Source of the DNA: Sphingomonadaceae bacterium
GTDB taxonomy: Bacteria > Pseudomonadota > Alphaproteobacteria > Sphingomonadales > Sphingomonadaceae
Direction: 5' to 3'
DNA length: 64,000 nucleotides
NCBI GenBank assembly: GCA_947454135.1
Contig: CANGJI010000002.1
Location: forward strand, 47,655 to 111,654
The notes under the pieces are model-generated. The model ran no database searches and was not told where the DNA came from. It was given only the letters and a program-made list of their open reading frames with translations. Below are positions 11,839 through 42,897 of this stretch, piece after piece (position 1 is the first letter of the stretch; the number at the start of each line of letters is the position of its first letter). The translations under genes and the position numbers were made by a program.

Positions 11839-11846
11839 GAGCGCGG

Positions 11847-21598: not shown

Positions 21599-22276
21599 GT
21601 GAAACTGCTCGTGGTCGAAGATGACGCTGCTCTGGCGGAGGCGCTGCTTGCCGCCTTCAACCGGGCCGATATCAATGCCGAATTCTGCGCGACCGGCAGC
21701 GGCGCGGCCGAACTGCTGTCGCTCTACGCTTTCGACGCAGCGGTGATCGATCGCGGATTGCCGGACATGGACGGGCTCGACCTCGTCCGCCTGGTGCGCC
21801 GCGGCGGGAACCGCATTCCCCTCATCATCCTCACCGCCCAATCGGATGTGGGTTCGCGGATCGACGGCCTCGACTCTGGCGCCGACGATTACCTTGGCAA
21901 GCCGTTCCTGTTTGCCGAACTGCTCTCCCGGCTCAACGCGGTCATGCGGCGGGCCGAGCAACGCCTTTCAAACACGATGGTCTGCGGCAACCTCGCCTTC
22001 GATGCGGACAGCCGGGTCGTGAGCGTCAATGCCGCCCCGATCGACCTTTCTCCGCGCGAGCGCACGCTGATCGAAATCCTGTTGCGATCACGGGGCAGGC
22101 CGCTCAACGCCGCCCAACTGGAAGACCGCCTGTGCGCGGCGAACGATGCGCTCACCGCCAACGCGCTCGAGGTGAGCATTCACCGCCTGCGCCGCAAGCT
22201 CAAGGCAGCCGGGTCCACGGCGCGGATCGCCTGGCTCCGCGGCCTCGGCTATTGCATCGAGGCTGATGCGGCATGA
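21599..22276 (+). CDS. OmpR-family response regulator (QseB/TctD-like)
   Basis: LLVVEDD, IDRGLPD, DDYLGKPF, NALEVSIHRLRRKL. GTG start. Confidence 0.9.
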   Translation: MKLLVVEDDAALAEALLAAFNRADINAEFCATGSGAAELLSLYAFDAAVIDRGLPDMDGLDLVRLVRRGGNRIPLIILTAQSDVGSRIDGLDSGADDYLGKPFLFAELLSRLNAVMRRAEQRLSNTMVCGNLAFDADSRVVSVNAAPIDLSPRERTLIEILLRSRGRPLNAAQLEDRLCAANDALTANALEVSIHRLRRKLKAAGSTARIAWLRGLGYCIEADAA

Positions 22277-23574
22277 CCCGCAGCCTGTGGTCGCGCATCG
22301 TCGCCGCGCAAGTTGCCGTGGCGCTCGCACTCGCGCTTGGTCTGCCCATCATCGTCAATCAGACCATCAACGCGGTGGGCGATGATCTGACCGAGCGCTT
22401 CATGAGCGGCGAGGCGGCGCAGTACCTCGCCATGCCCGCCAACCCGCAGGCCGACAAGGCGACAGGCGGACGGCACGGGGGCGCTGTCGCCATCTACATG
22501 GTTGCGGGCGGGAATGTCCGCCGGCTGTCCGGGCCGCAGATCGCGGACATCGCCGACCTGAGCCCCGCCCGGCTTGCGCGGCCGGCGTTCCTCCATGGCC
22601 GCTATTCGGACTTCCTGATCCGGCCGATCAAGGCGGGACAGACGCTGGTCATCGCCGAAGATCGCCGCCACCCGGCGGTGCTGCGCGACGATATCACCGA
22701 ACAGTTCCTCAGCCGCTTTGCCGTCATCGTGCTCATTGCCCTTGTCTGTTCGACCCTGGCGAGCCTTGTCGTCGTGGGGCGGGCGATGCGGCCGATCCGG
22801 CAGGCCGCGCGGGACGCGCGGGCACTCGATCCCATCCGCCCGGGCAAGGCACGCCTGCGCGAGGATGTCGTCCCGGCCGAGATCGTGCCGCTGGTCCACA
22901 CCGCCAACGATCTGCTCGACCGCGCTGTTGCCGGCTACGAACGCGAGCGCGTGTTTTCCGCCACCGTGGCGCACGAATTGCGCACGGCGCTCGCCACGAT
23001 CAGCCTCAGGGCCGAACTCGTGGCGGACGGCGAAGCCCGCATCAAGGTCGTCGAGGCAGTCGACCGCGCCAACGGGGTCGTGACCCAGATGCTGGAGCTG
23101 CATGGCCGCAATGGCGAGCCGATTGCCGGCGAACCCCGCGCGGTGTCGGAAGTGGCAGACGCGGTGATCGAGGAGCTCAAGGTGCTGATCGCCTCCTCGG
23201 GCCGCAGCGAGATCGCCGTGCGCGGATCGGGGGACGGACCGGCCCGCCTCGCCCCGGAATCACTCGTGCGGATCACCCTCGCGAACATCATCGAGAACGC
23301 CCTGCGCCATACGCCCGCAGATGCCGCGATCACGGTCATCTGCGATGATGCGGCGGCGACCGTCGTGGTTGCCGATGGCGGACCGGGCATCAGGATGCGC
23401 AGCGGATCGGATGGGCGCCGGATCTATTCGCGCGCCGATGGCGGGCAGTCCCACGGATCGGGGCTCGGCATCGCGATCGTGACGCGACTGATCGAATCGG
23501 CGGGCGGTTCGATCGGGTTCGGCGCCAGCGAAGCGGGCGGAACCGCCGTCACCCTGCGCTACCCGGCGGTCTAG
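22273..23574 (+). CDS. Sensor histidine kinase (QseC-like)
   Basis: Two TMs, AHELRT, NIIENALRH, DGGPGI, GSGLGI. ATGA overlap with the regulator. Confidence 0.88.
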   Translation: MTRSLWSRIVAAQVAVALALALGLPIIVNQTINAVGDDLTERFMSGEAAQYLAMPANPQADKATGGRHGGAVAIYMVAGGNVRRLSGPQIADIADLSPARLARPAFLHGRYSDFLIRPIKAGQTLVIAEDRRHPAVLRDDITEQFLSRFAVIVLIALVCSTLASLVVVGRAMRPIRQAARDARALDPIRPGKARLREDVVPAEIVPLVHTANDLLDRAVAGYERERVFSATVAHELRTALATISLRAELVADGEARIKVVEAVDRANGVVTQMLELHGRNGEPIAGEPRAVSEVADAVIEELKVLIASSGRSEIAVRGSGDGPARLAPESLVRITLANIIENALRHTPADAAITVICDDAAATVVVADGGPGIRMRSGSDGRRIYSRADGGQSHGSGLGIAIVTRLIESAGGSIGFGASEAGGTAVTLRYPAV

Positions 23575-23577
23575 CCC

Positions 23578-25026
23578 CTATTCGGCCTGTCCATTGGCCT
23601 GATAGAGCGCCACCGTATCAACCAGCCGTGCCGCCCACGCCGCGCTGCGCTGCAGACGGGCCTGCTGGACCGCCGCCTGCGACTGGAGCAGCATGAACGT
23701 CCCCACGTCGCCGAGCTGCTGCTGACGCTTCGTGAAGGTGTAGGACTGCTCGGCAGCCGCCAGCGCACGGACCGAAGCGTCCTCGGTCCGCGCATCGGCC
23801 TGGAGCCCGTTGATGGCATCGGACACGTCGACGAAGGCCTGCAACACGACCGTTCGGTACTGCGCCTTGCTTTGATCCAGCAGGGCCACAGCAGCCTGCT
23901 GCTGGCGGCGCAGCGCACCCGAATGGAACACCGGCGCGCTCACGCTCCCGATCAGCGACCAGAAGACATTGCCATCGGTGAACATGCTGGAAAACGCCTG
24001 CGCCGTTCCGCCGGCACTGGCGCTCAGCATCAGCGAGGGGAACCGGGCGGCCACGGCAGCGCGGGCATCCGCCGCAGCGCCTTCGACTGCGGCAGCGGCA
24101 GCCTGCACGTCGGGCCGGCCCTGCACCACGACGGCGGGAAGCGCGACAGGCACTTGCGGCGGCAGCACGAAACAGGTGCTCCCCGGCAGCGGCGGCAACG
24201 GCTCGCCCGGCGCGCGGCCAAGCAGCGCTGAGATAACCGCCCGCTGGTGGACTTCACTGCGCTGAAGCGCGGGCAGCGCGGCTTCCTGTGATGCGAGCGC
24301 GGCCTCCTGCGCGGCAACGTCGGCGTCGCCTGCTGCCCCCAGCGCGCGGCGCTGGCGGGTCAGCTCCAGCATCTGCCGTGCCGAACTGATCGATGTCTCG
24401 GTGGCGGCGATCTGGTCCTCCAGCGCCGCCCGGCTCACCGCCGCCACCACGAGATTGGCGGCCAGCGTCTGGCGCGCGGCAAGGAGATGCGCCGCCGCAA
24501 CCTTGGCCGCCGCCCGCGCCGACTGACGCCGCGCGCGCAGACCGCCGAACAGATCGAGCGGGTAGCTCACCGTTACTTGCGCGGTGTGCAGCGAGTAGAG
24601 CGTCTGCGTGGCATCGGCGAGCGGCGACTGCAGCGAATTGGGGCTTTGCGAGCGCTGGGCCGAGTACGACACGTCCACGCCCGGTGCCAGCGCCGCACCG
24701 GCAACCCCGGCCTGCGCCCGCGCCGCGCGCAAGGCGGCATCGGCGGCGGCGATGTCGTTGCTCCCGGCAAGGCCCTGATCGACGAGCTGGTCGAGAGCAT
24801 CGCAGCCGAACCGCGTCCACCATGCGCGGGGCGTCGTCTCGCCCACCGCGAAGGACTGGGCGGGAACCGCCCCGCCGCCCGCCGTGACGGTCGGTGCGGA
24901 AGCCCCGGCTACCGTTGGCAGCGGCGCAGTCGCGGCAGGATCGCCGATCCCGGCGCAACCGGCGGTCAGCGAACAGGCCGCCAAGGGCAGGGCTGCGTAC
25001 AGGACAGAGCGCAGGCGCGTGATCAT
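23578..25026 (-). CDS. RND efflux outer membrane factor (NodT/OprM lipoprotein)
   Basis: Lipobox LTAGC, WWTRFG-DALDQLV, SYPLDLFGG, YRTVVLQAFVDV. ATGA overlap with the RND gene. Confidence 0.88.
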   Translation of the reverse strand: MITRLRSVLYAALPLAACSLTAGCAGIGDPAATAPLPTVAGASAPTVTAGGGAVPAQSFAVGETTPRAWWTRFGCDALDQLVDQGLAGSNDIAAADAALRAARAQAGVAGAALAPGVDVSYSAQRSQSPNSLQSPLADATQTLYSLHTAQVTVSYPLDLFGGLRARRQSARAAAKVAAAHLLAARQTLAANLVVAAVSRAALEDQIAATETSISSARQMLELTRQRRALGAAGDADVAAQEAALASQEAALPALQRSEVHQRAVISALLGRAPGEPLPPLPGSTCFVLPPQVPVALPAVVVQGRPDVQAAAAAVEGAAADARAAVAARFPSLMLSASAGGTAQAFSSMFTDGNVFWSLIGSVSAPVFHSGALRRQQQAAVALLDQSKAQYRTVVLQAFVDVSDAINGLQADARTEDASVRALAAAEQSYTFTKRQQQLGDVGTFMLLQSQAAVQQARLQRSAAWAARLVDTVALYQANGQAE

Positions 25027-28000
25027 GCGGGCTCCCCTTCCTCGGTGTGGTGACCGATGTCGCGCCCGTGCGGCCCGCGATCTTCCGGCGGCAGGTGCAG
25101 CGAGAAGCGCTCGACCAGTGCCGGCAGCACCAGCAGGATCAGCAGGGGCGCCAGCGACATCCCGCCGACAACGACGAGGGCCAGCGGCTTCTGCACCTGG
25201 CTGCCGATGCCGTTGGACAGGGCGGCAGGAAGGAGGCCGATGGCGGCGACCAGACACGTCATCAGCACCGGCCGCATGCCGTTCGCGGTCGCGCGGCGGA
25301 CCGCCACGTGCCGCGTCGCGCCATCATCGACGACCTGGTTGAAGGTCGTGACGATCAGAATGCCGTCCATCACCGCAATGCCGAACAGCGCAACGAAACC
25401 GATCGCCGCCGAGATGCTGAACGGCGTCCCGGTCAGCGCCAGCGCCAGCACCCCGCCGACGATGGCCATGGGGATCGCGGAGAAGGCGAGGAACGTATCG
25501 CGGACCGAACCGAAGTTGGCGTAAAGCAGGATCAGGATCAGGATCAGACTGATCGGCACGACGATTTCCAGCCTCGAGATCGCGTTCTGCAGGTTGTCGA
25601 GCTCGCCGGCCCATTCGAGGTGATAGCCCGACGGGATCGTGACATGCTTGGCGATCCGCGCCTTCGCTTCACCAACGGCGCTGCCCAGATCGCGTCCGCG
25701 CACGCTGAACTTGATCGGGATGTAGCGCTCCTGATGCTCGCGGTAGATGAACGAGGCACCGGTGGTCAGGCGGATATTGGCGACTTCCGAGAGAGGCACC
25801 TGAATCTGGCCATTGCCGCCGGGTGCGGGCGCACCCACGGTGATCCGCCGAATGGCTTCGAGCGAACCGCGCTGGTCAGCCCTCAGACGGACGACGATCG
25901 GGAAGTGCCGGTCGGTCCCGGGCTCGTAGAGCTGGGCCACGCTGCTCCCGCCGATGGCGGCAGCGACAGTCTGGTTGATGTCGTCCGGCGTCAGTCCATA
26001 GCGCGAGGCGCGGGCGAGATCGACGTCGATGCGCACCGTTGGCTGGCCCAGCGACTGGAACACGCCGAGGTCCTCGATGCCGTTCACCTTGGCCATCTGC
26101 GCCTTGATCGCGTCTGCCGTCTTCTCCAGCACCGCAAGGTCGGGACCATAAAGCTTGATCGAGTTCGCGCCCTTAACGCCGGACGCGGCTTCCTCGACGT
26201 TGTCCTCGATGACCTGCGAGAACGAGAAGTCGACACCCGGATAGCGGTTACCCAGCTTACGCGACATGTCTTCGACCAGCTTGTCCTTGGTCATGCCCGC
26301 AGGCCACTCGCTGGCGGGCTTCAGCGGGACGAAATACTCCGCGTTGAAGAACCCGGTCGCGTCGGTGCCGTCATCGGGGCGGCCATGGGCGGAAAGGACC
26401 GCTTCGGTTTCCGGGTAGTTCGCCAGATCGCGCCGGATGGCATTGACGACAGGCTGGCCCGCCTCGAGGCTGATCGAAGGCGGCAGGCTGGCGCGGATGT
26501 AGAGGTTGCCTTCCTCCAGATGCGGCAGGAACTCGATGCCGAGCGAGCGCACGCCGATCCCCGCCAGCGCGAGCGCAATCGCAGCGCCGCCGAAGGTCAG
26601 CACGCGGTTGGCCTGCGCAAAGGCCGCCGCCGGTTCGTAGAGGCGGCGCAGCCACGCCACCAGCTTGGTCTCCACCTCGGAGAGACTGTCCGGCAGCAGG
26701 ATCGCCGAAAGCACCGGTGTCACCGTGAAGGTCGCGATGACGCCGCCGGTAATCGCGTAGGCATAAGTCTTCGCCATCGGACCGAAGATGTGCCCCTCGA
26801 CCCCCGTCAGCGTGAACAGCGGCAGGAAGCTGGCAATGATGATCGCAGCCGCGAAGAAGATGCCCCGGCTCACTTCGGATCCTGCATGGAGGATGGCGCT
26901 CATCCGGGTGGCCGGGCTGAAGTGGCCGTGGCCGGATTCGACCGCGACGGACCTTTCCACCATGTGCCGGAAGATGTTCTCGACCATGATCACGCTGGCA
27001 TCGACGACGAGACCGAAGTCCAGCGCGCCGACTGACAGCAGGTTGGCGCTTTCGCCCTGCGCGACGAGGATGAGGACCGCGATGGCAAGCGCAAAGGGAA
27101 TGGTCGCGGCAACGATCAGCGCGCTCCGCAGGTTGCCGAGGAAGATCCACTGCAACGCGAAGATCAGGATGATACCCGCCATCAGGTTCTCGAGCACCGT
27201 GTGCGTCGTCAGGCGGATGAGGTCCGAACGATCGTAGACGCGTTCCAGATGCACACCCGGCGGCAGCACACCCGAAGCGTTGATTTCGGCCACTTCCTTT
27301 TGCACCGCGAGGATCGTCGGCATCGACTTGGCGCCGCGCTGCATGAGGACGATGCCCTCGACGATATCATCGATGCCATTGTACCCGGCGATGCCGAGGC
27401 GCGGCATGTTGCTGATCGAAACCTTGGCGACATCCTTGAGCAGGACCGGCGTTCCGCCCGCCGTCCCGACCAGCACGTTCTCGATGGCCGAGGGCGACTG
27501 GATCAGGCCGACGCCGCGCACGATCGCCGCCTGCGAACCGAAGTTGATCGTCTGGCCGCCCACGTTGCTGTCGCTCTTCGCAAGCGACTGCATCACCTGC
27601 GCCATGGTCACCCCGTGGGCAACCAGCCGGTCGTTGTCGACCGTGACTTCATAGGCCCTGAGCTTGCCGCCCCAGCCGGTCACGTCGGCAACGCCCGGGA
27701 TGCGCTTGAACCGGCGCTGCAGGATCCAGTCCTGCAAGGTCTTGAGGTCCATAGGCGAATAGCCGTCGGGCGCGACGATGCGGTAGCGGTAGATTTCGCC
27801 GATCGGGCTCGTCGGCGAAAGGGTCGGCTGCGCACCGCCCGCCAGCGGCGGCAACTGCGACAGGCGGTTGATGACCTGCTGCTGCGCTTCCTGATAGGTC
27901 AGGTCGTAGCTGAACTGCACTTTCACGTCGGAGAGGCCGAACAGCGAGATCGCGCGCACCGTTGTCAGGTGCGGAATGCCCGCCATCGCCACCTCGATCG

Positions 28001-28199
28001 GCACGGTGACGTTGCGTTCCATCTCCTCGGCGGAGAGGCCCTGGGTCTGCGTGACGATCTCGACCATCGGCGGGACGGGATCGGGGTAGGCCTCGATATT
28101 GAGCGCCGCAAAGGCGAAGCCGCCTGCGACCAGCACCGCCGCGAAGACGGCAACGATCAGCAGCCGCTGCCGCAGCGCAAAGCGTAGCAGCCGGTTCAC
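25023..28199 (-). CDS. CusA/CzcA family (HME-type) RND efflux permease
   Basis: 1058 aa. IEAYPD, SLFGLS, SPIGEIYRY, GALDFGLVVDASVIMVENI, AAIGFVALFGIAVMDG, RPVLMT, GSQVQKPLA. Confidence 0.92.
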   Translation of the reverse strand: MNRLLRFALRQRLLIVAVFAAVLVAGGFAFAALNIEAYPDPVPPMVEIVTQTQGLSAEEMERNVTVPIEVAMAGIPHLTTVRAISLFGLSDVKVQFSYDLTYQEAQQQVINRLSQLPPLAGGAQPTLSPTSPIGEIYRYRIVAPDGYSPMDLKTLQDWILQRRFKRIPGVADVTGWGGKLRAYEVTVDNDRLVAHGVTMAQVMQSLAKSDSNVGGQTINFGSQAAIVRGVGLIQSPSAIENVLVGTAGGTPVLLKDVAKVSISNMPRLGIAGYNGIDDIVEGIVLMQRGAKSMPTILAVQKEVAEINASGVLPPGVHLERVYDRSDLIRLTTHTVLENLMAGIILIFALQWIFLGNLRSALIVAATIPFALAIAVLILVAQGESANLLSVGALDFGLVVDASVIMVENIFRHMVERSVAVESGHGHFSPATRMSAILHAGSEVSRGIFFAAAIIIASFLPLFTLTGVEGHIFGPMAKTYAYAITGGVIATFTVTPVLSAILLPDSLSEVETKLVAWLRRLYEPAAAFAQANRVLTFGGAAIALALAGIGVRSLGIEFLPHLEEGNLYIRASLPPSISLEAGQPVVNAIRRDLANYPETEAVLSAHGRPDDGTDATGFFNAEYFVPLKPASEWPAGMTKDKLVEDMSRKLGNRYPGVDFSFSQVIEDNVEEAASGVKGANSIKLYGPDLAVLEKTADAIKAQMAKVNGIEDLGVFQSLGQPTVRIDVDLARASRYGLTPDDINQTVAAAIGGSSVAQLYEPGTDRHFPIVVRLRADQRGSLEAIRRITVGAPAPGGNGQIQVPLSEVANIRLTTGASFIYREHQERYIPIKFSVRGRDLGSAVGEAKARIAKHVTIPSGYHLEWAGELDNLQNAISRLEIVVPISLILILILLYANFGSVRDTFLAFSAIPMAIVGGVLALALTGTPFSISAAIGFVALFGIAVMDGILIVTTFNQVVDDGATRHVAVRRATANGMRPVLMTCLVAAIGLLPAALSNGIGSQVQKPLALVVVGGMSLAPLLILLVLPALVERFSLHLPPEDRGPHGRDIGHHTEEGEPA

Positions 28200-29458: not shown

Positions 29459-29500
29459 CGGGGGGCACCTGATCGGGTGCGGAGCCCATAGGGCGGGTCA

Positions 29501-29517
29501 CTTACATGTGCCTTACA
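29501..29517 (-). promoter_or_regulatory. Candidate OmpR-family binding box TGTAAG-N5-TGTAAG upstream of the efflux operon
   Basis: + strand CTTACA-TGTGC-CTTACA, 11-bp period, about 43 bp upstream of the MFP start. Confidence 0.5.
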
Positions 29518-29731
29518 GCACAAGTCCGATCAACCGATAGCGTGATACCTGCCCATTTCTGTGCGCTTCAAGCGGCACATCCCGATCTCTACCGCCGCGT
29601 GGGGCTACCCGTCACGACAAGGTGGCCGGATGCTTTCTTCAAGCGGGTAGTGCCCGGGATCTGCACCGGCTCGAGACAACAATGCTCGAAGCCGCCCGCC
29701 ATTGATGATGCCTTGTGGCGGTTTGCCGGCA

Positions 29732-29757
29732 ATGGGGTCAGGCATGCCTGACCCCAT
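29732..29757 (-). terminator. Perfect 26-bp palindrome, likely terminator/stabilising hairpin of the peroxidase mRNA
   Basis: ATGGGGTCAGGCATGCCTGACCCCAT, 8 bp past the peroxidase stop; no U-tract. Confidence 0.65.
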
Positions 29758-29765
29758 CGATCAGC

Positions 29766-32700
29766 TTACAACACGAAGTCGGCTTGGGTGAGCGCGATCT
29801 GGCCTGCCAGGTCAATCTGGAATTCGATTGTCGAGGCATTGCCGTTGGTGTCACCATAGACATGCGTGAGGTTGTTTGCGGCATCGTACGACCACCAGAT
29901 GCCCCGCGCGGTCGCGGTGTTGCCGCCCCACTGGAAGGCCTGGTCACCGGCCGCAGACGAGTTCGGATCGATGGCAGAAAGCCCGATCTTGTCGGTCCCG
30001 TGCACGAAGTCGGTGATCCGGTCGAGTGCTGACGGCGTCGAGTCTGCCACGGCGCTGTACAGGAACGTGTCTGCACCTGCCCCGCCGGTCAGCACGTCCG
30101 CGCCGCTTCCGCCATTGATGGTGTCGTTGCCCGCGCCGCCATCGATGGTGTTGGCAGCCGTGCTGCCGGTCAGGGTATCATTGAACCCTGAACCGAGCAG
30201 ATTTTCGATCGTCGCGAGCGTATCGGTCCCGGCTCCGACCGTATTCTGCGCGGCGGTCAGAGCGAGGCTGACAGTCACCCCAGCAGTTGCACTGGCATAG
30301 GATGCGGTATCGGTACCGGCACCGCCTGTCAGCGTGTCATTGCCGGCTCCGCCATCGAGGACATCGTTGCCCGCGCCGCCATCGAGGACGTTGTTGCCCG
30401 CGTCTCCGCTCAGCGTATCGCCGGACCCCGAGCCCGTTACATTCTCGAAGCCCGAGAGCGTATCGGTACCGCTGCCACCCGTATTCTGCGCAGCGGTCAG
30501 CGACAGGTTCACCGTCACACCCGCATTTGCACTGGCATAGGTCAGCGTATCGGTACCGGCGCCGCCAATGAGCGTGTCGTTACCCGCGCCACCATCGATC
30601 GTGTCGTTGCCCGCGCCGCCATCGATCGTGTTCGCAGCATTGCTGCCAGTCAGGACGTCATTGAACCCTGAACCGATGAGGTTTTCGATTGTCGCGAGCG
30701 TGTCGGTCCCGGCTCCGCCCGTGTTCTGCGCGCTGGTCGTGGCAAGGCTGACAGTCACGCCAGCAGTTGCGCTGGCATAAGTTGCGGTGTCGGTACCGGC
30801 CCCGCCTGTCAGCGAGTCGTTACCGGCTCCGCCATCGAGGACATCGTTGCCCGCGCCGCCATCGAGCGTATCGTTGCCGGCGAGGCCCGAGATCACGTCA
30901 TTGCCGGACGTTCCGGTAATGGTGTCTGCGCCGGACGTGCCGGTGCGGACATCATCGACGCCATTGATCGTGATGGTGATCGCCTGTCTGGTGCCATCAG
31001 TTGCGGTAACGGTCACCGTGTCGGTCAAGGTTTGGCCGGTGCTGAGGCCATCGACAGCCGCATTGTTGTTCGCAAGGACATAAGTCCAGCTGCCGTTGGC
31101 AGCCAGCGAGAGCGAGCCGTAAGTGCTTGTCACCGACTGGGCGGCAAAGGCTGGCGAGTTATCGATGTCCGTGACGCTGAGCGTGCCGGTTACCTGCGAG
31201 GTGCCATTGAGCACGCTCGATTCCGCCACTGTTCCCGCAAGGTTGCCTGCAAAGACAGCGGCGTCGTTAACGGCTGCGAGCGTGAACGACTGCGTCCCCG
31301 CCACGCTGCCGCCCTTCCCGTCGCTGACGGTGAAGTTCAGCGTCACCGGGCCATTGTAGTTGGCGTCAGGGGTGAAGGTGAACGTGCCATTGCCGTTATC
31401 GCTGATAACGCCGTGGTTTGCGCTGAGCCCCGAAATCGAGAGCGTATCGCCCTCGGGGTCGGTATAGCCCTTCAGCAGGTTTGCCGCCGACACGGTGTAG
31501 GCAGTATCCTCGGCACCTGCAGCAAGCACAGCTTTCGCGCCCGTCAGTACCGGTGCCTCGTTCACATTGGTTACCGAGACCGCAATCGCCTGGGTGTCGG
31601 TCAGCGATCCGTCAGATACCTGGACAACGACGTCGTAGACGTTGTTGGCGCCGGCATCGGCAGGTGCCTCGTAGTTTGGCGCTGCCTTGAAGCTCAGCGC
31701 CCCAGTAGCGGCATTGATCTGGAACAGAGCCGCATCGGCGCCGCCGGAGATCGAGTAGCTCAGGGTCGCCCCGGCATCGGGATCGGTTGCGGTGACAGTC
31801 GCCACGGCCGTGCTGTTTTCGGCAATCGACGCTGTCGCTGTCGCACCGCCGCCACCGCTGGTGATGACAGGGTTTTCATTCAGGTTCGTAACGGTAACCG
31901 CAATCGCCTGAGTGTCGGTCAGCGATCCGTCAGACACCTGGACAACGACATCGTAGACGTTGTTGGCGCCGACATCGGTGGGTGCTTCGAAGTTAGGCGC
32001 AGCCTTGAAGATCAGCGCACCCGTTGCGGCATCGATCTGGAACCGGGCAGCGTCTGCACCGCCGGAGATCGAGTAGCTCAGGCTCGTCCCAGGATCGAGG
32101 TCGGTCGCTGAAACCGTGGTCACTGCCGTGCTGTTTTCGGCAATCGACACTGCCGCAGTCGCACCGCCGCCATTGCTGGTGATGACAGGCGCATGGTTGG
32201 CATAGGTGACGGTCGTGTCGGCGAACTTGAGCGTATTGATGCCGAGCACCAGATCCTGCCCGTCCCGGCCGGCCACGCTGTCGGTGACTTTCAGGACCTG
32301 GACCGTGTTGGCGTTCGCGTTTTGCACGAGCATCCGGGTCGAGAGATCATAATAGGTCACCACGATCGTATAGTCGGCCAGATTGCCGGTGAAGACCGCA
32401 AGGTCGTTACCGCTGGCAGTGCTTGCGACACCGGCGCTGGAGGAATTGCCCAGCACGATGTCCTTGAACTGATCGGAACGCAGCAATTCGGTGAAATGGT
32501 CCTGATAGGCGGACGCGCCTGTCAGACCGAACTTGGCGTTCACCTCGTCGATCAGCCCCTTGCCATCGAGCGCGGCATTCCACGCCACGCGATGGGTGGC
32601 GCCGGCGTAGCGGGCATCGAGAACGTCGAGGGATTCCGTGGAACCATGCGCCAGATCGTACTCGGCGCTGTGCACATAGGCGCTGGCATCGCCGTACTTG

Positions 32701-35700
32701 CCGATCAGCGTATCCAGCCGGACCGATCCGCCGATGAGGATGTCGTTGCCGCTACCGCCCTGGATCGTATCATCGCCGTTGCCGCCGATCAGCCAGCCAG
32801 CCGCGCCGTTGGTATTGTCACCGGTCAGGGTGTCACCGCCGGCAGAGCCGATCAAGCCTTCGATCTGCGTGCTGGGAACCTGAATGAGGTTGCCATTGAC
32901 CGCGGCGCCCGGAGTGGTCTGGTTGCCAAGGTTGAAGGTCACCCCGCCCGGACGGATCGTGTTGTCCGAGAAATCGATGATATCAAAGCCGGTGGTGCCG
33001 GGCTTGTTGCCCGAATCGTCCACGCCGTCACCGCCCAGCACTTCGTCCGAACCGATGTTCATCGCGCCGGTGGTGTCACCGGGCCGAAGGATGTCATCGC
33101 CCGCACCGCCGAACAGCTGGTCCTGATCGGCGCCGCCCGAAAGCACGTCGTCGCCGTTATCACCGTAGAGAATGTCGCCGCCGGAGCCGCCGTCGACATA
33201 GTCGTTGCCGTCATCGCCGTGGGTAAACGGATCGGTATCCTGATCGCCGTAGACCTTGTCATCGCCGCTGCCGGCCGACAGCTTGTCGATGCCGATGCCG
33301 CCAGAGATGAAGTCGTTGCCCGATCCGCCGACCACCTGGTCAGCGCCGTTGATGTCGGTGCCCGACGATTCGCCGTAGAGGAAGTCGTCGCCTGCGCCGC
33401 CGTCGATCAGGTCGGGGTTGTCACCGCCGTAGATCGTGTCGGACCCGGCATCGCCGTACAGGCGGTCGATCCCGTATCCGCCAGAGATGATGTCGTTGCC
33501 GCCTTCGCCATAGACGGTATCGTCGCCGCCGCCGGCATAGAGCATGTCGCGGAACGCGGTGCCCGCGATCACTTCGCTGGATTCAGAGCCCGAGTTCGGC
33601 GTGCCATCGAGATTGACGCCATCATTCAGCTTGTTGGCGCCGGTATCCGCGCCGTTGTCGAGCGTGCGGGTGTCGCGGATATAGGCATAGTTGTCGACCT
33701 TGATGATCGAGCCATCCAGCGCCTGCGTGCCGCCACCGTTGGAATAGATACCAACGCCTTCGCCGTTGTTGGCATAGTTGTTCGCGGCCGTGGCATTGGC
33801 CGGATTGTTGTTCCACGTCAGCGCACCGATGCCGTTATGGGCGCCAAAGGTGTTATCCGTGGTTACCAGAACGCCATTCTGATCAACGACGTCACCATAC
33901 TTGTGGTTGTTGCTGGTCGTCTGCGTTTCGGTGTTACCGCCATTGGCGGCGATGAACACTTCCCGGTGAGCGCCGAAATCATAGTACTTGTCGGCATAAC
34001 CGAAGATGTTGCCGTTCAGGTGGGTGAGCCCGGTGTTGCGCTCAACGAGATCCTTCAGCTGGCCGTTCGCCACTTCCTGGCCGAACTGCTGACCGGCAAG
34101 GCGATAGAGATAATAGAACCGGTCGCCATCCATCAGCGATTCGATCTGGGTCACGAACACCAGGTCGAAGGTTTCGCCGAGCAGGCCGCCCGGCTGATGG
34201 ACTTCCGCGAGACCGCCCAGCCAGGTATCGATCTGGTTGAAGCCCTGGTCGCCGCCGTCAAGGAAGTTGATGGCGAAGGTCAAGCCATCGGCGAGGGTCG
34301 CATTCTGGTCGCCGGTGGCGAGCTTCGCCAGAGCGTCGCCCGAGGCTGTGGCAGACGAATTGGCCTCGCTGTAGTTGCCATTGGCCAGATCGACGATCGC
34401 CTGGGCCCGCGCCAGCGCGTCGGCGTTGTTCTGGGCATTGCCCGTGCCATTGCTGAACGAATAGGCTGCAATGAAGTTCGCCAGCGATTCCGGGTGCTGC
34501 ATGTTCTGCCCGAAATTGCTCCAGCTGGTGTAGCGCGTCAGGCCGATCGCTTCGCGGAAGTCATTCAGGGTCGGGATCCCGATATCACGGCCACGGGCAA
34601 TGTTGATCGCCGCCAGATCGAGCGGTTGGCCGAGCAGACCCTGGTTCAGCGCCGGGGTGACGAATTCGTCCACCTCGTTCATCTGCTGGTGCGTCATGCC
34701 CAGCAGGATCGCCGAAGGGCCGGACAAGGCATACTGATCCGGGTTCAGAAAGGCATCGCGCAGCGCATAGCCCATGATCTTGCCGGTCAGGCCGCCATTG
34801 GGATCGATCGTGTCGATCGTTTCGCGCAAGGTGGAGTGGCCGAAGCGGAACGCCACCTGCGAATACTCCAGCGTCACACCCGGGTTCTTGTCGGGCGAAT
34901 AGCCGACGAATTCCTGGATGTTCGGCGAGACGTTGCGAGCATACTGGTCGACCGCCGAGTGCTGGTATTCCATTTCCACGATCAGCTTGACCGCGGCGAA
35001 AGTCTTGTCGGTATCCCAGTTGATCGTGCCATTGGCCGTCACATAGTCGCCGAGAGCGTTCTCGTAGTGGCCGTTCACCACATGGACGCCATTTGCCAGC
35101 GCGGCGCCATCGACCGCCGCCACGGCATTCTGGAAGCCGTGCAGGTTGTCGGTGCTGCCCGTAACGATGGCATCGCGGTGCAGCGCGTCGATGAAGTTAT
35201 CGACCTGGTAGTTGTGCTCTTCATGGAACACGTGGTGGATCGAGGTGAGGCCGAAGTTCTCGTTCACGCGGCCGTCGCCGGCGATGTAGTGATCGCCAAC
35301 CGAAGCCATCAGGATTTCGCTCACGGCATCGTGCGTGGCGGTGAAATCACCGCCCGCGCCGTGGGAGAAGTCCTTGATCGAGAAGTTGCTGAAATCGACC
35401 CAGAACGACAGCGCGCTGGCACCGGTCAGGTTGGTTCCTGCCGGAATGGACGAAGACGGCCCGGTGGGCAGCGCGGTCCCCAGATGCAGGGTCAGAACGC
35501 CGTTGACCATGCCGAACGTGTCGCCCGGGCGGGCAGGGTTGTTCGCGATCTTGTTGCCGAGGAACTGGATCGCCGCATCAACCGCAGCCTGTTCCGCCGC
35601 ATTGCCCTTGTGCAGGTGCGCCGCATCGAAGCGCGGATTGTTGTCGAGCAGCAAGGCCGAACCGGTGGTGCCGCCGGTCAGCTTGCCGCTGGCATCGCGG

Positions 35701-37118
35701 TTGCGCAGATCCAGCACGTCTTCCCAGCTCAGCGCGTCGCGGCCGGTGGCAATCACGGCGGCGCGCAGTTCGTTCAGCGTCGGCAGCGTATCGTGCGTGG
35801 TCGTCCCGTCGGGCTTGGTCCAGGCCTGCGCCAGCGTGGTGCCGTCCAGCATGCGGATGCCGGCGTGATACTTGCCGGTAACGGGATCAAGCACCCATTC
35901 GCGCAGCAGATCGGTGACCTGCTGGTGCGAGCCATAAGTCTGGCTCTGATCGATGAACGGCGAGGTGTGATCGAGATACTGCGGGCCGGTTGAGGTGACG
36001 CTGTCCACATTGGCGCGGCTGATCGTGATCGAGGTGGTCGGCCGGCCGTCCGGACCGATCATGCCATAGAGCGGATCGCTCGAATCGAGCGTGATCTTGA
36101 TCGTCTTGCCCGACGAACCCTTGCCGATGAAGTCCAGCCCGTGATCGAAGAACTGGCCGAACAGCACGAAGAAGCCGTTCGAGGGCGAAACGCCGGGATT
36201 GAGGCCGCCGATGAAGTGATCGCCCAAGTTGGCATCGGCGCCCGCAGTCACCGAACCGGTCGACGCGGCACCGGCCGAGCCGATGAAGCGAGCCTGGGTA
36301 TCCACCTGACCAAGGCCGCCATCGGCCACGGTTTTCAGCATGCCCCAGTCGAGCACCGTGGCGACACCATTGGCGTCGTAGTAGATTTCATTGGGCGCGT
36401 GGGCGGCATGCGCCGGATCGGCCTGGTGATTGGCCCAGGTGTCGTAAACCACCCCGGCGGTCGTCGTCAGCAGGCTGATCGCGCGCGGCGAGGAATCGAC
36501 AACGTTCTGGATGATGATCGGCTGCTTGGTGCCGTCGGTCAGCGTGGTGCCGGTCGGGTCCGCCAGGATCGCATACTGCGCGGTCGGTGCGGCCTTGTAG
36601 TAATTGATGAAGTACGGCTGCTGGGCGGCGGGCGAGAGGGTGTCGAAGTCGGCCGCCGTCTTGCCGGGATTTGCGGCCAGATAGACCTTCACTGCCGCAT
36701 CGTGCGCCGCAGGCAGCGTGTTGAACGCCGCCACCATGCGCGGGAAGATCTGGTCGACCGCGCCGTACTGCCACAGCAGGCCGGACAGGTTGTTGTTCTG
36801 GCCCGAGGGATTGCGGATGCCCGAGAGATCCACGTTCGTGAGGTAGGACGGGCCGAAGAGGTTCAGCGCCGTCGCGGTGTCGACGACCTGCGACGTCCCG
36901 GTCAGCCCGAGCGAGCTCAGGCCGGCCTGCGTGATCGTGCGGATGGGCGCATCATAGAGCAGCGTGCCCAGCCCGTCGTAAGCGCTGGTCGTGCCATCCC
37001 AATTCAGCAGCGCGTTGTGGTTGGCATCGAACAGGGGGCGGAACGTTACCTGAGCGAGGATGAACGCGATATCGGTTCCGTTAAGGACGAACGGCTTGAG
37101 ATAGTCATTGTAAGTCAT
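29766..37118 (-). CDS. Giant secreted animal-type heme peroxidase (peroxicin, MopA/PepA-like) with RTX, cadherin, VCBS repeats
   Basis: 2450 aa from ATG 37118 with AGGGGGA SD. FGQFFDHGLD, IDQSQTYGS, GDGRVNEN, FRFGH, NIARGRDIG, DGDRFYY; many GGxGxDxLx nonapeptides; serralysin-like C-terminus DRITDFVHGTDKIGLSAID. Confidence 0.9.
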   Translation of the reverse strand: MTYNDYLKPFVLNGTDIAFILAQVTFRPLFDANHNALLNWDGTTSAYDGLGTLLYDAPIRTITQAGLSSLGLTGTSQVVDTATALNLFGPSYLTNVDLSGIRNPSGQNNNLSGLLWQYGAVDQIFPRMVAAFNTLPAAHDAAVKVYLAANPGKTAADFDTLSPAAQQPYFINYYKAAPTAQYAILADPTGTTLTDGTKQPIIIQNVVDSSPRAISLLTTTAGVVYDTWANHQADPAHAAHAPNEIYYDANGVATVLDWGMLKTVADGGLGQVDTQARFIGSAGAASTGSVTAGADANLGDHFIGGLNPGVSPSNGFFVLFGQFFDHGLDFIGKGSSGKTIKITLDSSDPLYGMIGPDGRPTTSITISRANVDSVTSTGPQYLDHTSPFIDQSQTYGSHQQVTDLLREWVLDPVTGKYHAGIRMLDGTTLAQAWTKPDGTTTHDTLPTLNELRAAVIATGRDALSWEDVLDLRNRDASGKLTGGTTGSALLLDNNPRFDAAHLHKGNAAEQAAVDAAIQFLGNKIANNPARPGDTFGMVNGVLTLHLGTALPTGPSSSIPAGTNLTGASALSFWVDFSNFSIKDFSHGAGGDFTATHDAVSEILMASVGDHYIAGDGRVNENFGLTSIHHVFHEEHNYQVDNFIDALHRDAIVTGSTDNLHGFQNAVAAVDGAALANGVHVVNGHYENALGDYVTANGTINWDTDKTFAAVKLIVEMEYQHSAVDQYARNVSPNIQEFVGYSPDKNPGVTLEYSQVAFRFGHSTLRETIDTIDPNGGLTGKIMGYALRDAFLNPDQYALSGPSAILLGMTHQQMNEVDEFVTPALNQGLLGQPLDLAAINIARGRDIGIPTLNDFREAIGLTRYTSWSNFGQNMQHPESLANFIAAYSFSNGTGNAQNNADALARAQAIVDLANGNYSEANSSATASGDALAKLATGDQNATLADGLTFAINFLDGGDQGFNQIDTWLGGLAEVHQPGGLLGETFDLVFVTQIESLMDGDRFYYLYRLAGQQFGQEVANGQLKDLVERNTGLTHLNGNIFGYADKYYDFGAHREVFIAANGGNTETQTTSNNHKYGDVVDQNGVLVTTDNTFGAHNGIGALTWNNNPANATAANNYANNGEGVGIYSNGGGTQALDGSIIKVDNYAYIRDTRTLDNGADTGANKLNDGVNLDGTPNSGSESSEVIAGTAFRDMLYAGGGDDTVYGEGGNDIISGGYGIDRLYGDAGSDTIYGGDNPDLIDGGAGDDFLYGESSGTDINGADQVVGGSGNDFISGGIGIDKLSAGSGDDKVYGDQDTDPFTHGDDGNDYVDGGSGGDILYGDNGDDVLSGGADQDQLFGGAGDDILRPGDTTGAMNIGSDEVLGGDGVDDSGNKPGTTGFDIIDFSDNTIRPGGVTFNLGNQTTPGAAVNGNLIQVPSTQIEGLIGSAGGDTLTGDNTNGAAGWLIGGNGDDTIQGGSGNDILIGGSVRLDTLIGKYGDASAYVHSAEYDLAHGSTESLDVLDARYAGATHRVAWNAALDGKGLIDEVNAKFGLTGASAYQDHFTELLRSDQFKDIVLGNSSSAGVASTASGNDLAVFTGNLADYTIVVTYYDLSTRMLVQNANANTVQVLKVTDSVAGRDGQDLVLGINTLKFADTTVTYANHAPVITSNGGGATAAVSIAENSTAVTTVSATDLDPGTSLSYSISGGADAARFQIDAATGALIFKAAPNFEAPTDVGANNVYDVVVQVSDGSLTDTQAIAVTVTNLNENPVITSGGGGATATASIAENSTAVATVTATDPDAGATLSYSISGGADAALFQINAATGALSFKAAPNYEAPADAGANNVYDVVVQVSDGSLTDTQAIAVSVTNVNEAPVLTGAKAVLAAGAEDTAYTVSAANLLKGYTDPEGDTLSISGLSANHGVISDNGNGTFTFTPDANYNGPVTLNFTVSDGKGGSVAGTQSFTLAAVNDAAVFAGNLAGTVAESSVLNGTSQVTGTLSVTDIDNSPAFAAQSVTSTYGSLSLAANGSWTYVLANNNAAVDGLSTGQTLTDTVTVTATDGTRQAITITINGVDDVRTGTSGADTITGTSGNDVISGLAGNDTLDGGAGNDVLDGGAGNDSLTGGAGTDTATYASATAGVTVSLATTSAQNTGGAGTDTLATIENLIGSGFNDVLTGSNAANTIDGGAGNDTIDGGAGNDTLIGGAGTDTLTYASANAGVTVNLSLTAAQNTGGSGTDTLSGFENVTGSGSGDTLSGDAGNNVLDGGAGNDVLDGGAGNDTLTGGAGTDTASYASATAGVTVSLALTAAQNTVGAGTDTLATIENLLGSGFNDTLTGSTAANTIDGGAGNDTINGGSGADVLTGGAGADTFLYSAVADSTPSALDRITDFVHGTDKIGLSAIDPNSSAAGDQAFQWGGNTATARGIWWSYDAANNLTHVYGDTNGNASTIEFQIDLAGQIALTQADFVL
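30115..30870 (-). repeat. Intragenic duplication in the RTX region (about 270-bp units, 480-bp offset)
   Basis: Sequence from 30121 closely matches sequence from 30601. Confidence 0.8.
31560..32190 (-). repeat. Tandem cadherin-domain duplication (318-bp period)
   Basis: CAATCGCCTG.GTGTCGGTCAGCGATCCGTCAGA at 31583 and 31901. Confidence 0.8.
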
Positions 37119-37595
37119 GGATTTCCCCCTGTGCCGACCCGCGCGCGCCAAGATTTTGAGCAACCAAAACCTCAGGTGGAAGACCACAATCGCCGCCAGC
37201 TTGCGGAGGGCTTAACTTCCAGAAATCTGGCAGCAATAAAACTTAACGTTCGATTGGAACCATTTTTCTATTTTCTGCTGGGAAATAACTACAAGGACTT
37301 ATTACTTTGGCTTGCACTGCTCCATAATGAGACGGGTACAATGAGGATGGTGCATGTTCATGGTTAATATAAGCCGAGCTGGTCAGGATAGTCCGGCCAG
37401 TACTGCCTCATCCCCGCGCGCTCGCCCCGGTACTGGCCGCAGGGATCAGCGCGCCGGATGCGATCCTTCATCCGGAACCATCAATGGCCCCCGGATGCGG
37501 ACACATCGATCCACACCGGTGCAGGGCAGTTTATCAGGAAACCGATGAGCCAATGCCGTTTGCCGAATGAAATCGGAGCGCTTCGAACGGTGAGA

Positions 37596-37669
37596 TGGAG
37601 GCCCGAGCCGGAATCGAACCGGCGTAAACGGATTTGCAGTCCGGTGCGTAACCACTCCGCCATCGGGCC
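37596..37669 (-). tRNA. tRNA-Cys (GCA)
   Basis: GGCCCGA/TCGGGCC acceptor stem, anticodon loop CTGCAAA, GGTTCGATTCC T-arm, encoded CCA; 74 nt. Confidence 0.97.
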
Positions 37670-41850: not shown

Positions 41851-41902
41851 GCCGCACCTGCGAAGACAGCGATAGCCCAATCATTCCGGGCGCTTCCGTT
41901 TA

Positions 41903-41965: not shown

Positions 41966-42034
41966 CGGTCCACTGCTGATCCAGCTCCTTGGATTTCGCG
42001 CGTGGGGCGTGTCCGGCGCAGGAGCAGTCAGACC

Positions 42035-42847: not shown

Positions 42848-42897
42848 TCGGCACTTCCGGCACGCGCTGCGGCGCTCGCCGGACCTGAACACGAGAG

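What the first reader, a model, noticed from the sequence alone, without database searches (positions are those of the whole stretch)
21599..37669. Candidate metal-redox block at tRNA-Cys: TCS, HME-type RND pump and giant peroxidase
Seen: downstream of the tRNA-Cys 3' end lie, in order, an AT-rich promoter, the RTX peroxidase, a co-oriented MFP-RND-OMF operon and a convergent regulator/kinase pair ending 3 bp from the OMF stop. Known: tRNA 3' ends are integration hotspots, CzcA-type pumps export divalent metals, and MopA peroxidases oxidise Mn(II). Inference: a linked export-and-oxidise metal or ROS defence system that I do not recognise as described. Caveats: no integrase or att repeat found, and a strong hairpin separates peroxidase from pump.
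Basis: partly seen in the sequence, partly recalled or inferred. Interest (0 to 1): 0.72.

Follow-up and report, generated by a model that had tools for sequence, protein, structure and literature searches.

The report
Unlinked efflux pump and peroxidase, side by side
The genes are all there as described, but the metal pump with its sensor pair and the giant secreted peroxidase are two separate accessory modules that ended up adjacent in a highly variable spot next to tRNA-Cys in one Novosphingobium genome; nothing supports a combined "export-and-oxidise" system.

Summary
The anatomy is confirmed: an OmpR-type regulator and histidine kinase, a convergent MFP-RND-OMF operon, a strong hairpin, a 2,450-aa RTX haem peroxidase, an AT-rich gap and tRNA-Cys.

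The genome is a Novosphingobium MAG close to N. sediminis NBRC 106119 (marker protein 97% identical). That genome is colinear with the window except exactly between the tRNA-Cys 3' end and the TadG-like gene.
- There it carries an unrelated 8-kb catabolic cluster.
- Its orthologous five-gene TCS+RND unit (77-96% aa identity) lies about 90 kb away.
- It has no peroxidase at all.

Seven genomes of the genus share no cargo genes downstream of tRNA-Cys.

Peroxidase homologues occur in 12 of 250 congeners. Across 71 loci from Alpha- and Betaproteobacteria, plus 7 further congeners, none has an HME-RND operon downstream. Their recurrent neighbours are type I secretion genes and their own two-component systems.

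There is no integrase and no att repeat, and codon usage is native. No riboswitch was found.

Only the idea that the tRNA-Cys flank is a hotspot survives. Co-induction could not be tested. This is an ordinary accessory-gene mosaic of low interest.

The parts
21412..21593 (.). Left junction: 182 bp with no counterpart in N. sediminis, between the conserved TadG-like upstream region and the TCS+RND module
   Evidence: blastn breakpoints. No repeat is shared with the other junctions or found elsewhere in the genome.
21599..22276 (+). OmpR-family response regulator of the TCS+RND module
   Evidence: Pfam Response_reg + Trans_reg_C. Best NCBIfam matches are TctD, PmrA and QseB, all far below cut-off; heavy-metal RR TIGR01387 scores 130 vs 279. 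77% aa identity to the N. sediminis orthologue in the same arrangement.
22273..23574 (+). Periplasm-sensing histidine kinase, partner of the RR
   Evidence: HisKA + HATPase_c. Heavy-metal HK TIGR01386 scores 96.5 vs 292.6. No orthologue in 40 relatives. 78% identical orthologue in N. sediminis next to the same RND operon.
23578..25026 (-). NodT-family outer-membrane factor lipoprotein, last gene of the pump operon
   Evidence: TIGR01845 307 bits vs cut-off 210. Lipobox LTAGC; start at 25026 overlaps the RND stop (ATGA). 84% identical to N. sediminis.
25023..28199 (-). HME-type RND inner-membrane pump, ZneA/CzcA-like; probably exports divalent cations
   Evidence: TIGR00914 864 bits vs 701. PDB ZneA E 1e-190 against CusA 1e-140 and AcrB 1e-58. 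TM4 reads DFGLVVDASVIMVEN. Acidic residues align with ZneA E136, D602, E610, D654 and D658. The CusA Met triad positions are not Met. 96% identical to N. sediminis.
28196..29458 (-). RND periplasmic adaptor (MFP), first gene of the pump operon
   Evidence: TIGR01730 187 bits vs 94.9; HlyD_D23. 94% identical to N. sediminis.
29507..37587 (-). Peroxidase cassette (gene plus both flanking spacers), absent from N. sediminis
   Evidence: No blastn counterpart on the colinear N. sediminis contig. No peroxidase homologue anywhere in that genome.
29732..29757 (-). Perfect 13+13 palindrome just after the peroxidase stop; terminator-like hairpin without a U-tract
   Evidence: -33.6 kcal/mol, z -3.8; 0 of 200 shuffles fold as well.
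29766..37118 (-). 2,450-aa secreted RTX animal-haem peroxidase (long peroxicin, MopA-like architecture)
   Evidence: PF03098 as one domain in three stretches, about residues 336-1061. Distal GQFFDHG, RVNE and proximal FRFGHS motifs are present. Cadherin-like, VCBS, 14 RTX stretches and a serralysin-type C-terminus ending DFVL. 33% identity over 713 aa to Erythrobacter SD-21 MopA.
37119..37595 (.). AT-rich spacer (54% GC) upstream of the peroxidase; promoter not demonstrated
   Evidence: Not conserved with other peroxidase loci.
37596..37669 (-). tRNA-Cys(GCA); its 3' end marks the right border of the variable segment
   Evidence: ARAGORN and Rfam, 65.5 bits. Homology with N. sediminis resumes at 37588, 8 bp outside the tRNA.

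Best explanation
The 16-kb block is a chance juxtaposition of two independent accessory modules. They sit in an integrase-free, hypervariable chromosomal site bounded by the 3' end of tRNA-Cys in a Novosphingobium genome.

Module 1 (21594-29506) is a five-gene unit: an OmpR/PmrB-like two-component system convergent with an MFP-RND-OMF operon. The pump is a ZneA/CzcA-like HME transporter. It most likely exports a divalent transition-metal cation (Zn/Co/Cd/Ni type) from the periplasm or cytoplasm by proton antiport, probably under control of the adjacent TCS. That the unit exists and stays together is shown. The substrate and the regulation are inferred.

Module 2 (29507-37587) is a single gene for a catalytically intact, RTX-tailed animal-haem peroxidase of the long-peroxicin (MopA-like) type. 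It is probably exported by a type I secretion system encoded elsewhere, and it acts outside the cell. It is a candidate Mn(II)/superoxide-linked oxidase, but its activity is untested.

The two modules are separated by a strong hairpin and a 307-bp spacer, so they most likely have their own promoters. The site exchanges cargo between species, most plausibly by homologous recombination through the conserved flanks.
For: (1) Closest relative. N. sediminis NBRC 106119 has a DapL-type marker 97% identical. It is colinear with window 1-46 kb except between tRNA-Cys and the TadG-like gene.
- At that site it carries an 8-kb cluster of TonB receptor, P450, AraC, ADH and Ldi-like genes.
- Its RR-HK/OMF-RND-MFP unit has the same architecture at 77/78/84/96/94% aa identity, but lies about 90 kb away among genes whose G000 orthologues are on other contigs.
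- It has no peroxidase homologue.

(2) Nucleotide identity. The module is 83.6% identical to N. sediminis, within the range of the conserved flanks (81.8% and 89.3%). Codon usage and GC3 of all block genes fall at the 22nd-91st percentiles of the genome. The DNA is therefore native to the lineage and not recently imported.

(3) Other relatives. The next relatives, G006 and G002, have the RND operon (75% aa) in yet other places, with no TCS and no peroxidase.

(4) Distribution of the peroxidase. It is present in only 12 of 250 congeners. In G001, G022 and seven further congeners it is never next to an RND pump or tRNA-Cys.

(5) Wider survey. In 71 peroxidase loci across Alpha- and Betaproteobacteria, none has an MFP-RND operon downstream. 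Five have only distant RND genes (24-35% identity), all upstream of the peroxidase. The recurrent neighbours are:
- a T1SS ABC protein (23 loci);
- a T1SS MFP (14 loci);
- a second RTX/cadherin protein (11 loci);
- LuxR- or OmpR-type TCS genes (about 20 loci each).

(6) The site itself. Seven genomes share no gene (E<1e-20) in the 8-20 kb beyond tRNA-Cys, apart from one boundary gene.

(7) Separation of the modules: hairpin and spacer. No riboswitch is present.

(8) Secretion. G000 has one T1SS ABC-MFP pair, on contig C42, next to another RTX protein.
Against: - Co-orientation and proximity (307 bp) would allow read-through or shared regulation.
- The hairpin lacks a U-tract, so termination is not certain.
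- Here the peroxidase lacks the adjacent T1SS and TCS genes that many homologues have. That leaves open that it has come under the control of the neighbouring TCS.
- Which arrangement of the TCS+RND unit is ancestral could not be determined, because all four genomes place the RND operon differently.
- The genome is a 151-contig MAG, and the junctions could not be checked against reads.
Confidence: 0.8

Rival explanations
1. One reading: a functionally coupled export-and-oxidise system. The TCS senses a metal or ROS, the HME pump expels the metal (e.g. Mn(II)), and the secreted peroxidase oxidises it outside the cell. The coupling would be newly assembled in this species.
For: - Adjacency and co-orientation of the pump and the peroxidase.
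- The peroxidase has intact catalytic residues and MopA-like architecture.
- The pump is of the divalent-cation HME type.
- The peroxidase has lost the TCS and T1SS neighbours typical of its family, so a new regulator is conceivable.
Against: - The linkage is seen in this genome only. It is absent from the closest relative, which keeps TCS+RND without any peroxidase, from all congeners with the peroxidase, and from 71 loci elsewhere.
- A strong hairpin and a 307-bp spacer lie between the two.
- The TCS falls below the heavy-metal TCS cut-offs.
- There is no Mn riboswitch.
- From general knowledge, known Mn exporters are MntE, MntP and TerC types, not HME-RND pumps.
Confidence: 0.07
2. One mobile genomic island, acquired as a single unit at tRNA-Cys by site-specific integration, whose integrase and att repeats have since decayed.
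For: - The block abuts the tRNA-Cys 3' end, with homology to the relative resuming 8 bp from it.
- The site is hypervariable across the genus.
- The peroxidase is patchily distributed, in 12 of 250 congeners.
Against: - There is no integrase, transposase or space for one.
- There is no tRNA-3' direct repeat.
- No repeats occur at the three junctions.
- Codon usage is native.
- The TCS+RND half diverges from N. sediminis like the core flanks, so it is resident DNA that was relocated.
- The alternative cargos in N. sediminis and G006 also lack integrases.
- The two halves have different phylogenetic distributions.
Confidence: 0.08
3. Assembly artefact: the MAG contig is chimeric, and the peroxidase, the pump module or both were joined to the tRNA-Cys region by mis-assembly.
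For: The genome is a 151-contig MAG, 93% complete. The orthologous flanks of the N. sediminis module map to two other G000 contigs.
Against: - No repeats at the junctions could have misled an assembler.
- GC3 and codon usage are uniform and genome-typical across the junctions.
- Nucleotide divergence from N. sediminis is similar in the module and in the flanks.
Confidence: 0.04

Closest known systems
HME-RND tripartite metal efflux systems with an adjacent two-component regulator (CzcCBA-CzcRS and ZneA of Cupriavidus metallidurans; CzrCBA/NczCBA of Caulobacter, PMC3637150)
   Same: - RND protein above the curated CusA/CzcA family cut-off, with ZneA as the best solved relative.
- The TM4 Asp-Asp-Glu proton-relay residues are kept.
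- Acidic residues lie at the ZneA proximal-site positions.
- MFP and NodT-type OMF sit in one translationally coupled operon.
- An OmpR/HK pair lies beside it.
   Different: - TM4 reads DFG-DAS-VEN instead of the HME1/2 consensus DFG-DGA-VEN, so the subgroup and substrate are open.
- Gene order is MFP-RND-OMF, not czcCBA (OMF-MFP-RND; from general knowledge).
- The RR and HK do not reach the heavy-metal TCS subfamily cut-offs.
- The MFP is below the CzcB/NccB cut-off (126 vs 319 bits).
MopA-type Mn(II)-oxidising haem peroxidases / long peroxicins (Erythrobacter sp. SD-21, Aurantimonas manganoxydans, P. putida GB-1; PMC6247904)
   Same: - A single large N-terminal animal-haem-peroxidase domain with insertions.
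- Conserved distal His/Gln/Asp, Arg/Glu and proximal His motifs.
- A C-terminal RTX Ca-binding region and a T1SS-type C-terminus.
- Size of 2,450 aa against 2,138 aa for SD-21 MopA.
   Different: - Only 33% identity over 713 aa to the characterised SD-21 enzyme, so it is not an orthologue.
- Extra cadherin-like and VCBS domains.
- No adjacent T1SS or TCS, unlike many homologues.
- Mn oxidation is untested.
tRNA-flanking flexible genomic regions (integrase-free replacement or additive islands)
   Same: - Sharp border at a tRNA 3' end with conserved core flanks.
- Different cargo in every species examined.
- The cargo consists of accessory transport, catabolic or surface functions.
   Different: - No integrase, att repeats or compositional anomaly, so it is not a classical integrative island.
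- One cargo module (TCS+RND) is resident lineage DNA found at another chromosomal place in the sister species.

Membership tests
HME-RND (CusA/CzcA family heavy-metal efflux) | Whole-protein score above the curated family cut-off (NCBIfam TIGR00914) | tested here: met
   863.6 bits vs cut-off 701.45. The multidrug RND models all fall far below their cut-offs. PDB ranking is ZneA 1e-190 > CusA 1e-140 > AcrB 1e-58.
HME-RND (CusA/CzcA family heavy-metal efflux) | TM4 signature DFGX3DGAX3VEN of the HME1/HME2 divalent-cation pumps (Nies 2003, as quoted in PMC3637150) | tested here: not met
   The sequence is DFGLVVDASVIMVEN (residues 394-408): DFG and VEN are kept, and DGA is replaced by DAS. The two Asp and the Glu needed for proton antiport are present. 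The protein is therefore filed as HME-type of undetermined subgroup, not as HME1/2.
HME-RND (CusA/CzcA family heavy-metal efflux) | Metal-site chemistry: acidic cluster (ZneA type, divalent) versus Met triad (CusA type, Cu/Ag) | tested here: met
   In the phmmer alignment the query has E, D613, E621, D666 and E670 opposite ZneA E136, D602, E610, D654 and D658. It has R, N/A and E opposite CusA M573, M623 and M672. Which residues form the sites is recalled from the ZneA and CusA structure papers and was not re-read here.
Heavy-metal two-component system (CzcRS/CusRS/SilRS subfamily) | RR and HK above the curated subfamily cut-offs TIGR01387 and TIGR01386 | tested here: not met
   RR 130.2 vs 279.2 bits; HK 96.5 vs 292.55 bits. 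The best (also sub-threshold) matches are TctD/PmrA and PmrB/QseC.
MopA / long peroxicin (Mn-oxidising animal haem peroxidase) | Animal haem peroxidase domain with catalytic and haem-linking residues | tested here: met
   PF03098 189 bits. GQFFDHG (distal Gln/Asp/His), GDGRVNEN (Arg/Glu) and AFRFGHS (proximal His) were read in the translation.
MopA / long peroxicin (Mn-oxidising animal haem peroxidase) | N-terminal peroxidase plus C-terminal haemolysin-type Ca-binding (RTX) region | tested here: met
   14 HemolysinCabind stretches and Peptidase_M10_C at residues 2082-2472. This is the architecture described for MopA in PMC6247904.
MopA / long peroxicin (Mn-oxidising animal haem peroxidase) | Orthology to a biochemically characterised MopA | tested here: not met
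   33% identity over 713 aa (E 2e-74) to Erythrobacter SD-21 MopA, which was fetched through its published cloning primer. It is a homologue, not an orthologue.
MopA / long peroxicin (Mn-oxidising animal haem peroxidase) | Mn(II)-oxidising activity | not testable with these tools
   Needs expression of about residues 1-1075 and a Mn(III)/LBB assay with Ca2+, haem and NAD+, as in PMC6247904.
Classical tRNA-integrated genomic island | Located at a tRNA 3' end and variably present among relatives | tested here: met
   The border lies 8 bp from the tRNA-Cys 3' end. Seven genomes carry unrelated cargo.
Classical tRNA-integrated genomic island | Integrase or recombinase gene and flanking direct repeat of the tRNA 3' end | tested here: not met
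   All ORFs of the block are accounted for and none is an integrase. There is no second copy of the 25-nt tRNA 3' end with up to 3 mismatches. No junction repeats were found.
Classical tRNA-integrated genomic island | Atypical base composition or codon usage | tested here: not met
   GC3 and synonymous-codon likelihood of all six genes lie between the 22nd and 91st percentiles of 2,016 genome ORFs.
Conserved gene cluster / operon-level system (peroxidase + HME pump) | Linkage recurring in other genomes | tested here: not met
   None of 71 peroxidase loci has an MFP-RND operon downstream. None of 9 congeners with the peroxidase has a pump next to it. The sister species has the pump unit without any peroxidase.

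The most novel reading that the evidence does not exclude
In this one species the relocated TCS+HME-pump unit and a peroxidase stripped of its usual TCS and T1SS neighbours have become a new functional pair. In this reading the neighbouring regulator controls both, so that a divalent metal expelled by the pump is oxidised or scavenged outside the cell by the MopA-like peroxidase. This would be a very recent, lineage-specific coupling that comparative genomics cannot see.
Probability: 0.06. Interest if true: 0.55.

Novelty: new member of a known kind. Interest (0 to 1): 0.17.

Why it matters
As it stands it matters little. It is a worked example of how adjacency in a hypervariable tRNA-flanking site can mimic a multi-gene system. 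It also shows that one well-chosen sister genome can resolve such a case.

Three by-products are useful.
- The five-gene TCS+RND unit stays together when it moves, and it exists in a cultured strain (N. sediminis NBRC 106119). Its metal specificity, with the unusual DFG-DAS-VEN TM4 motif, could be tested there.
- The survey of this peroxidase family gives its usual context: its own TCS upstream, then a T1SS ABC protein, a second RTX/cadherin protein and a T1SS MFP downstream. That context is a better guide to its biology than the pump beside it here.
- The peroxidase is a rare accessory gene in Novosphingobium (about 5% of species). This is relevant to anyone inferring Mn-oxidising potential from taxonomy.

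Tried and rejected
- Direct repeat of the tRNA-Cys 3' end (25 nt, up to 3 mismatches): only the tRNA itself.
- Shared repeats or mobile-element remnants at the three junction spacers, and copies of them elsewhere in the genome: none.
- Conservation of those spacers with other peroxidase loci: none.
- Rfam scan at E<=1 over 17-39 kb for a Mn (yybP-ykoY) or other riboswitch: only the tRNA passed.
- Sigma-70 and terminator consensus scan: nothing in the AT-rich spacer, and the hairpin fails the U-tail rule.
- Compositional test for foreign origin: negative.
- Polarising which location of the TCS+RND unit is ancestral, using G006 and G002: failed, because every genome has it in a different context.
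- The ORFs 40114-41034, 41212-41880 and 41900-42892 that I first used as synteny markers are largely antisense shadows. The real gene at 40.0-41.85 kb is a PhaC on the + strand. This does not affect the synteny result.
- I did not run structure prediction or the large protein database searches, because the question was settled by synteny.
Full report
**1. Anatomy**

- An OmpR-family response regulator lies at 21599-22276 (+). A histidine kinase at 22273-23574 (+) overlaps it by 4 bp.
- Three bases after the kinase stop, on the other strand, is the stop of a NodT-type outer-membrane factor (23578-25026). Upstream of it on the minus strand come an RND pump (25023-28199) and a membrane-fusion protein (28196-29458).
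- The MFP/RND and RND/OMF junctions are ATGA-type 4-bp overlaps. The true OMF start is a lipoprotein signal at 25026, not the longer ORF start at 25257.
- A 307-bp spacer follows. It holds a perfect 13+13 palindrome (29732-29757) a few bases after the stop of the peroxidase gene. The palindrome folds at -33.6 kcal/mol, and none of 200 shuffles folds as well. It has no U-tract.
- The peroxidase runs 29766-37118 (-). The ATG at 37118 follows a GGGGGAAA motif and is the likely start.
- A 477-bp spacer of 54% GC, against 66% for the genome, separates it from tRNA-Cys(GCA) at 37596-37669 (-). No promoter-like site was called in that spacer. 'AT-rich' is therefore an observation, while 'promoter' is an assumption.

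**2. What the parts are**

*The pump.*
- The RND protein is a clear member of the CusA/CzcA heavy-metal efflux family: TIGR00914 scores 864 bits against a cut-off of 701.
- Its best solved relative is the Zn(II) pump ZneA (E 1e-190), ahead of CusA (1e-140) and AcrB-type pumps (1e-58).
- TM4 reads DFGLVVDASVIMVEN. The DFG, VEN and both Asp residues are kept, but the HME1/2 consensus DFG-DGA-VEN (PMC3637150) is not matched exactly.
- In the alignment, acidic residues stand opposite ZneA E136, D602, E610, D654 and D658. The CusA methionine-triad positions are not Met. The identity of those site residues is from my memory of the structure papers.
- I read it as a divalent-cation HME pump of undetermined subgroup.

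*The two-component system.* It is generic OmpR/PmrB-like. It does not reach the curated heavy-metal TCS cut-offs: 130 vs 279 bits for the RR and 96.5 vs 293 bits for the HK.

*The peroxidase.*
- It has one animal-haem-peroxidase domain spread over residues of about 336-1061.
- The distal GQFFDHG, the RVNE and the proximal FRFGHS motifs are intact.
- Cadherin-like and VCBS domains, 14 RTX stretches and a serralysin-type C-terminus ending DFVL follow.
- This is the 'long peroxicin' architecture described for MopA (PMC6247904).
- I fetched the characterised Erythrobacter SD-21 mopA through its published cloning primer. The two proteins share only 33% identity over 713 aa. It is a homologue with the same layout, not an orthologue.

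**3. Whose genome, and the decisive comparison**

The window lies on contig C2 of a 3.39-Mb, 151-contig, 93%-complete MAG. A search with the histidine kinase found one close hit, in Novosphingobium sediminis NBRC 106119. Its DapL-type aminotransferase is 97% identical to the window's, against at most 92% for 24 other congeners. N. sediminis is therefore the closest available relative.

Its contig C19 is colinear with window positions 1 to about 46,000. Nucleotide BLAST gives sharp breakpoints:
- window 17286-21411 matches C19 69976-65821 (82%);
- window 37588-39980 matches C19 57818-55447 (89%);
- between these, N. sediminis has 8 kb encoding a TonB-dependent receptor, a P450, an AraC regulator, an alcohol dehydrogenase and a linalool-dehydratase-like protein;
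- window 21594-29506, which holds exactly RR, HK, OMF, RND and MFP, matches C19 164554-156632 (84% nt; 77/78/84/96/94% aa). That is about 90 kb further along, and the flanking genes there have G000 orthologues on contigs C41 and C5;
- window 29507-37587, the peroxidase with both its spacers, has no counterpart. A whole-genome search of N. sediminis with the peroxidase N-terminal 1,073 aa found nothing.

It consists of two pieces with different histories.

**4. Wider comparisons**

*The site.*
- The right flank (PhaC, aminotransferase, enoyl-CoA hydratase, tRNA-Cys) is conserved across the genus.
- The 8-20 kb beyond the tRNA share no gene at E<1e-20 among seven genomes, apart from one boundary gene.
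- In G006 the site holds 19 kb of TonB receptors, a hybrid kinase, a LuxR regulator, an MFS transporter, a tannase and an SDR.
- None of these cargos includes an integrase.

*The pump.*
- Orthologues at 75% aa identity occur in G006 and G002, in yet other contexts, with neither the TCS nor a peroxidase.
- The kinase has no orthologue in 40 relatives.

*The peroxidase.*
- 12 of 250 congeners have a homologue.
- In G001, G022 and seven more congeners, none is next to an RND pump, this TCS or tRNA-Cys.
- Across 71 loci from Alpha- and Betaproteobacteria, none has an MFP-RND operon downstream. Five have only distant RND genes (24-35% identity), all upstream of the peroxidase.

Clustering the neighbours of those 71 loci shows what this family is usually linked to:
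- a T1SS ABC protein directly downstream (23 loci);
- a T1SS HlyD-type adaptor (14 loci);
- a second RTX/cadherin protein (11 loci);
- LuxR-type or OmpR-type two-component genes upstream (about 20 loci each).

In the window the peroxidase gene has none of these beside it. The genome's only T1SS ABC-MFP pair lies on contig C42 next to another RTX protein.

**5. Island hallmarks**

- There is no integrase and no space for one.
- There is no direct repeat of the tRNA 3' end.
- No repeats are shared by the three junction spacers or found elsewhere in the genome.
- Codon usage and GC3 are native for every gene of the block.
- The TCS+RND module diverges from N. sediminis about as much as the core flanks do. 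It is resident lineage DNA that sits in different places in the two species, and it was not recently imported.
- No riboswitch, Mn-responsive or otherwise, lies in the block.

**6. Interpretation**

The best-supported reading (about 0.8) has two self-contained accessory modules.
- One is a metal-efflux unit with its own sensor pair.
- The other is a secreted MopA-like peroxidase.
- They lie next to each other because the tRNA-Cys flank is a site where Novosphingobium genomes swap cargo, probably by recombination through the conserved flanks.

Three less likely readings remain:
- a species-specific new functional coupling (about 0.06-0.07);
- a decayed single integrative island (about 0.08), which the separate histories of the two halves and the native composition argue against;
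- a MAG mis-assembly (about 0.04), which the uniform composition and the absence of junction repeats argue against.

**7. Verdict**

The proposed export-and-oxidise system is not supported. The components are new members of known kinds, and interest is low.

Noticed in passing
L032-L102 (71 peroxidase loci), e.g. L032:17492-20588, L036:7758-9862 and L036:19596-21569: This peroxidase family has a recurrent context: a LuxR- or OmpR-type two-component system upstream; then a T1SS ABC protein (23 loci), a second RTX/cadherin protein (11 loci) and a T1SS HlyD adaptor (14 loci) downstream. The window's copy has none of these beside it.
   Followed up: partly
G000 contig C42:17927-28361 (outside the window): This is the genome's only T1SS ABC-MFP pair (34% and 31% identical to the peroxidase-linked ones). 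It lies next to a 1,617-aa RTX protein and is a candidate trans-acting secretion route for the peroxidase.
   Followed up: no
window 17925-21231; L030 (G006 C17:10690-14026): The TadG/TadE-like three-gene cluster sits beside the variable tRNA-Cys segment here and in N. sediminis. In G006 it lies directly after the orthologues of window 49.6-56.9 kb, the block that ends at tRNA-Gln (57082-57155) in this window. This is a second rearrangement associated with a tRNA-flanked block.
   Followed up: partly
window 25023-28199, protein residues 394-408: The TM4 motif is DFG-DAS-VEN rather than the HME1/2 consensus DFG-DGA-VEN (ZneA has DFG-DGA-MEN, CusA AVG-DAA-IEN). The variant is an intermediate that may mark a distinct HME subgroup. 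The 96%-identical N. sediminis orthologue would allow a test.
   Followed up: partly
L110:7881-15539 (N. sediminis C19:57880-65538): The alternative cargo at the tRNA-Cys site in the sister species is a TonB-dependent receptor, a P450, an AraC regulator, a Zn-ADH and a linalool dehydratase/isomerase-like protein. It is a possible terpenoid-alcohol catabolic cluster.
   Followed up: no
L100 (CAMDRJ010000118.1): A 13-kb contig labelled 'MAG: Klebsiella pneumoniae' carries a homologue of this alphaproteobacterial peroxidase (55% identity over about 200 aa). It is probably a mis-binned contig.
   Followed up: no
window 40024-41850 (+): The long minus-strand ORFs at 40114-41034, 41212-41880 and 41900-42892 are mostly antisense shadows. 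Over 40.0-41.85 kb the real gene is a PhaC PHA synthase on the + strand: relatives match that frame at 76-91% identity against 51-76% for the minus frames.
   Followed up: partly
window 10423-12578 (-): A second OmpR-type RR/HK pair lies 9 kb to the left, next to an autotransporter gene (12714-16073). It is conserved with N. sediminis at 91-93% identity. Its RR is the nearest in-window paralogue (34% identity) of the orthologue of the block's RR in N. sediminis.
   Followed up: no
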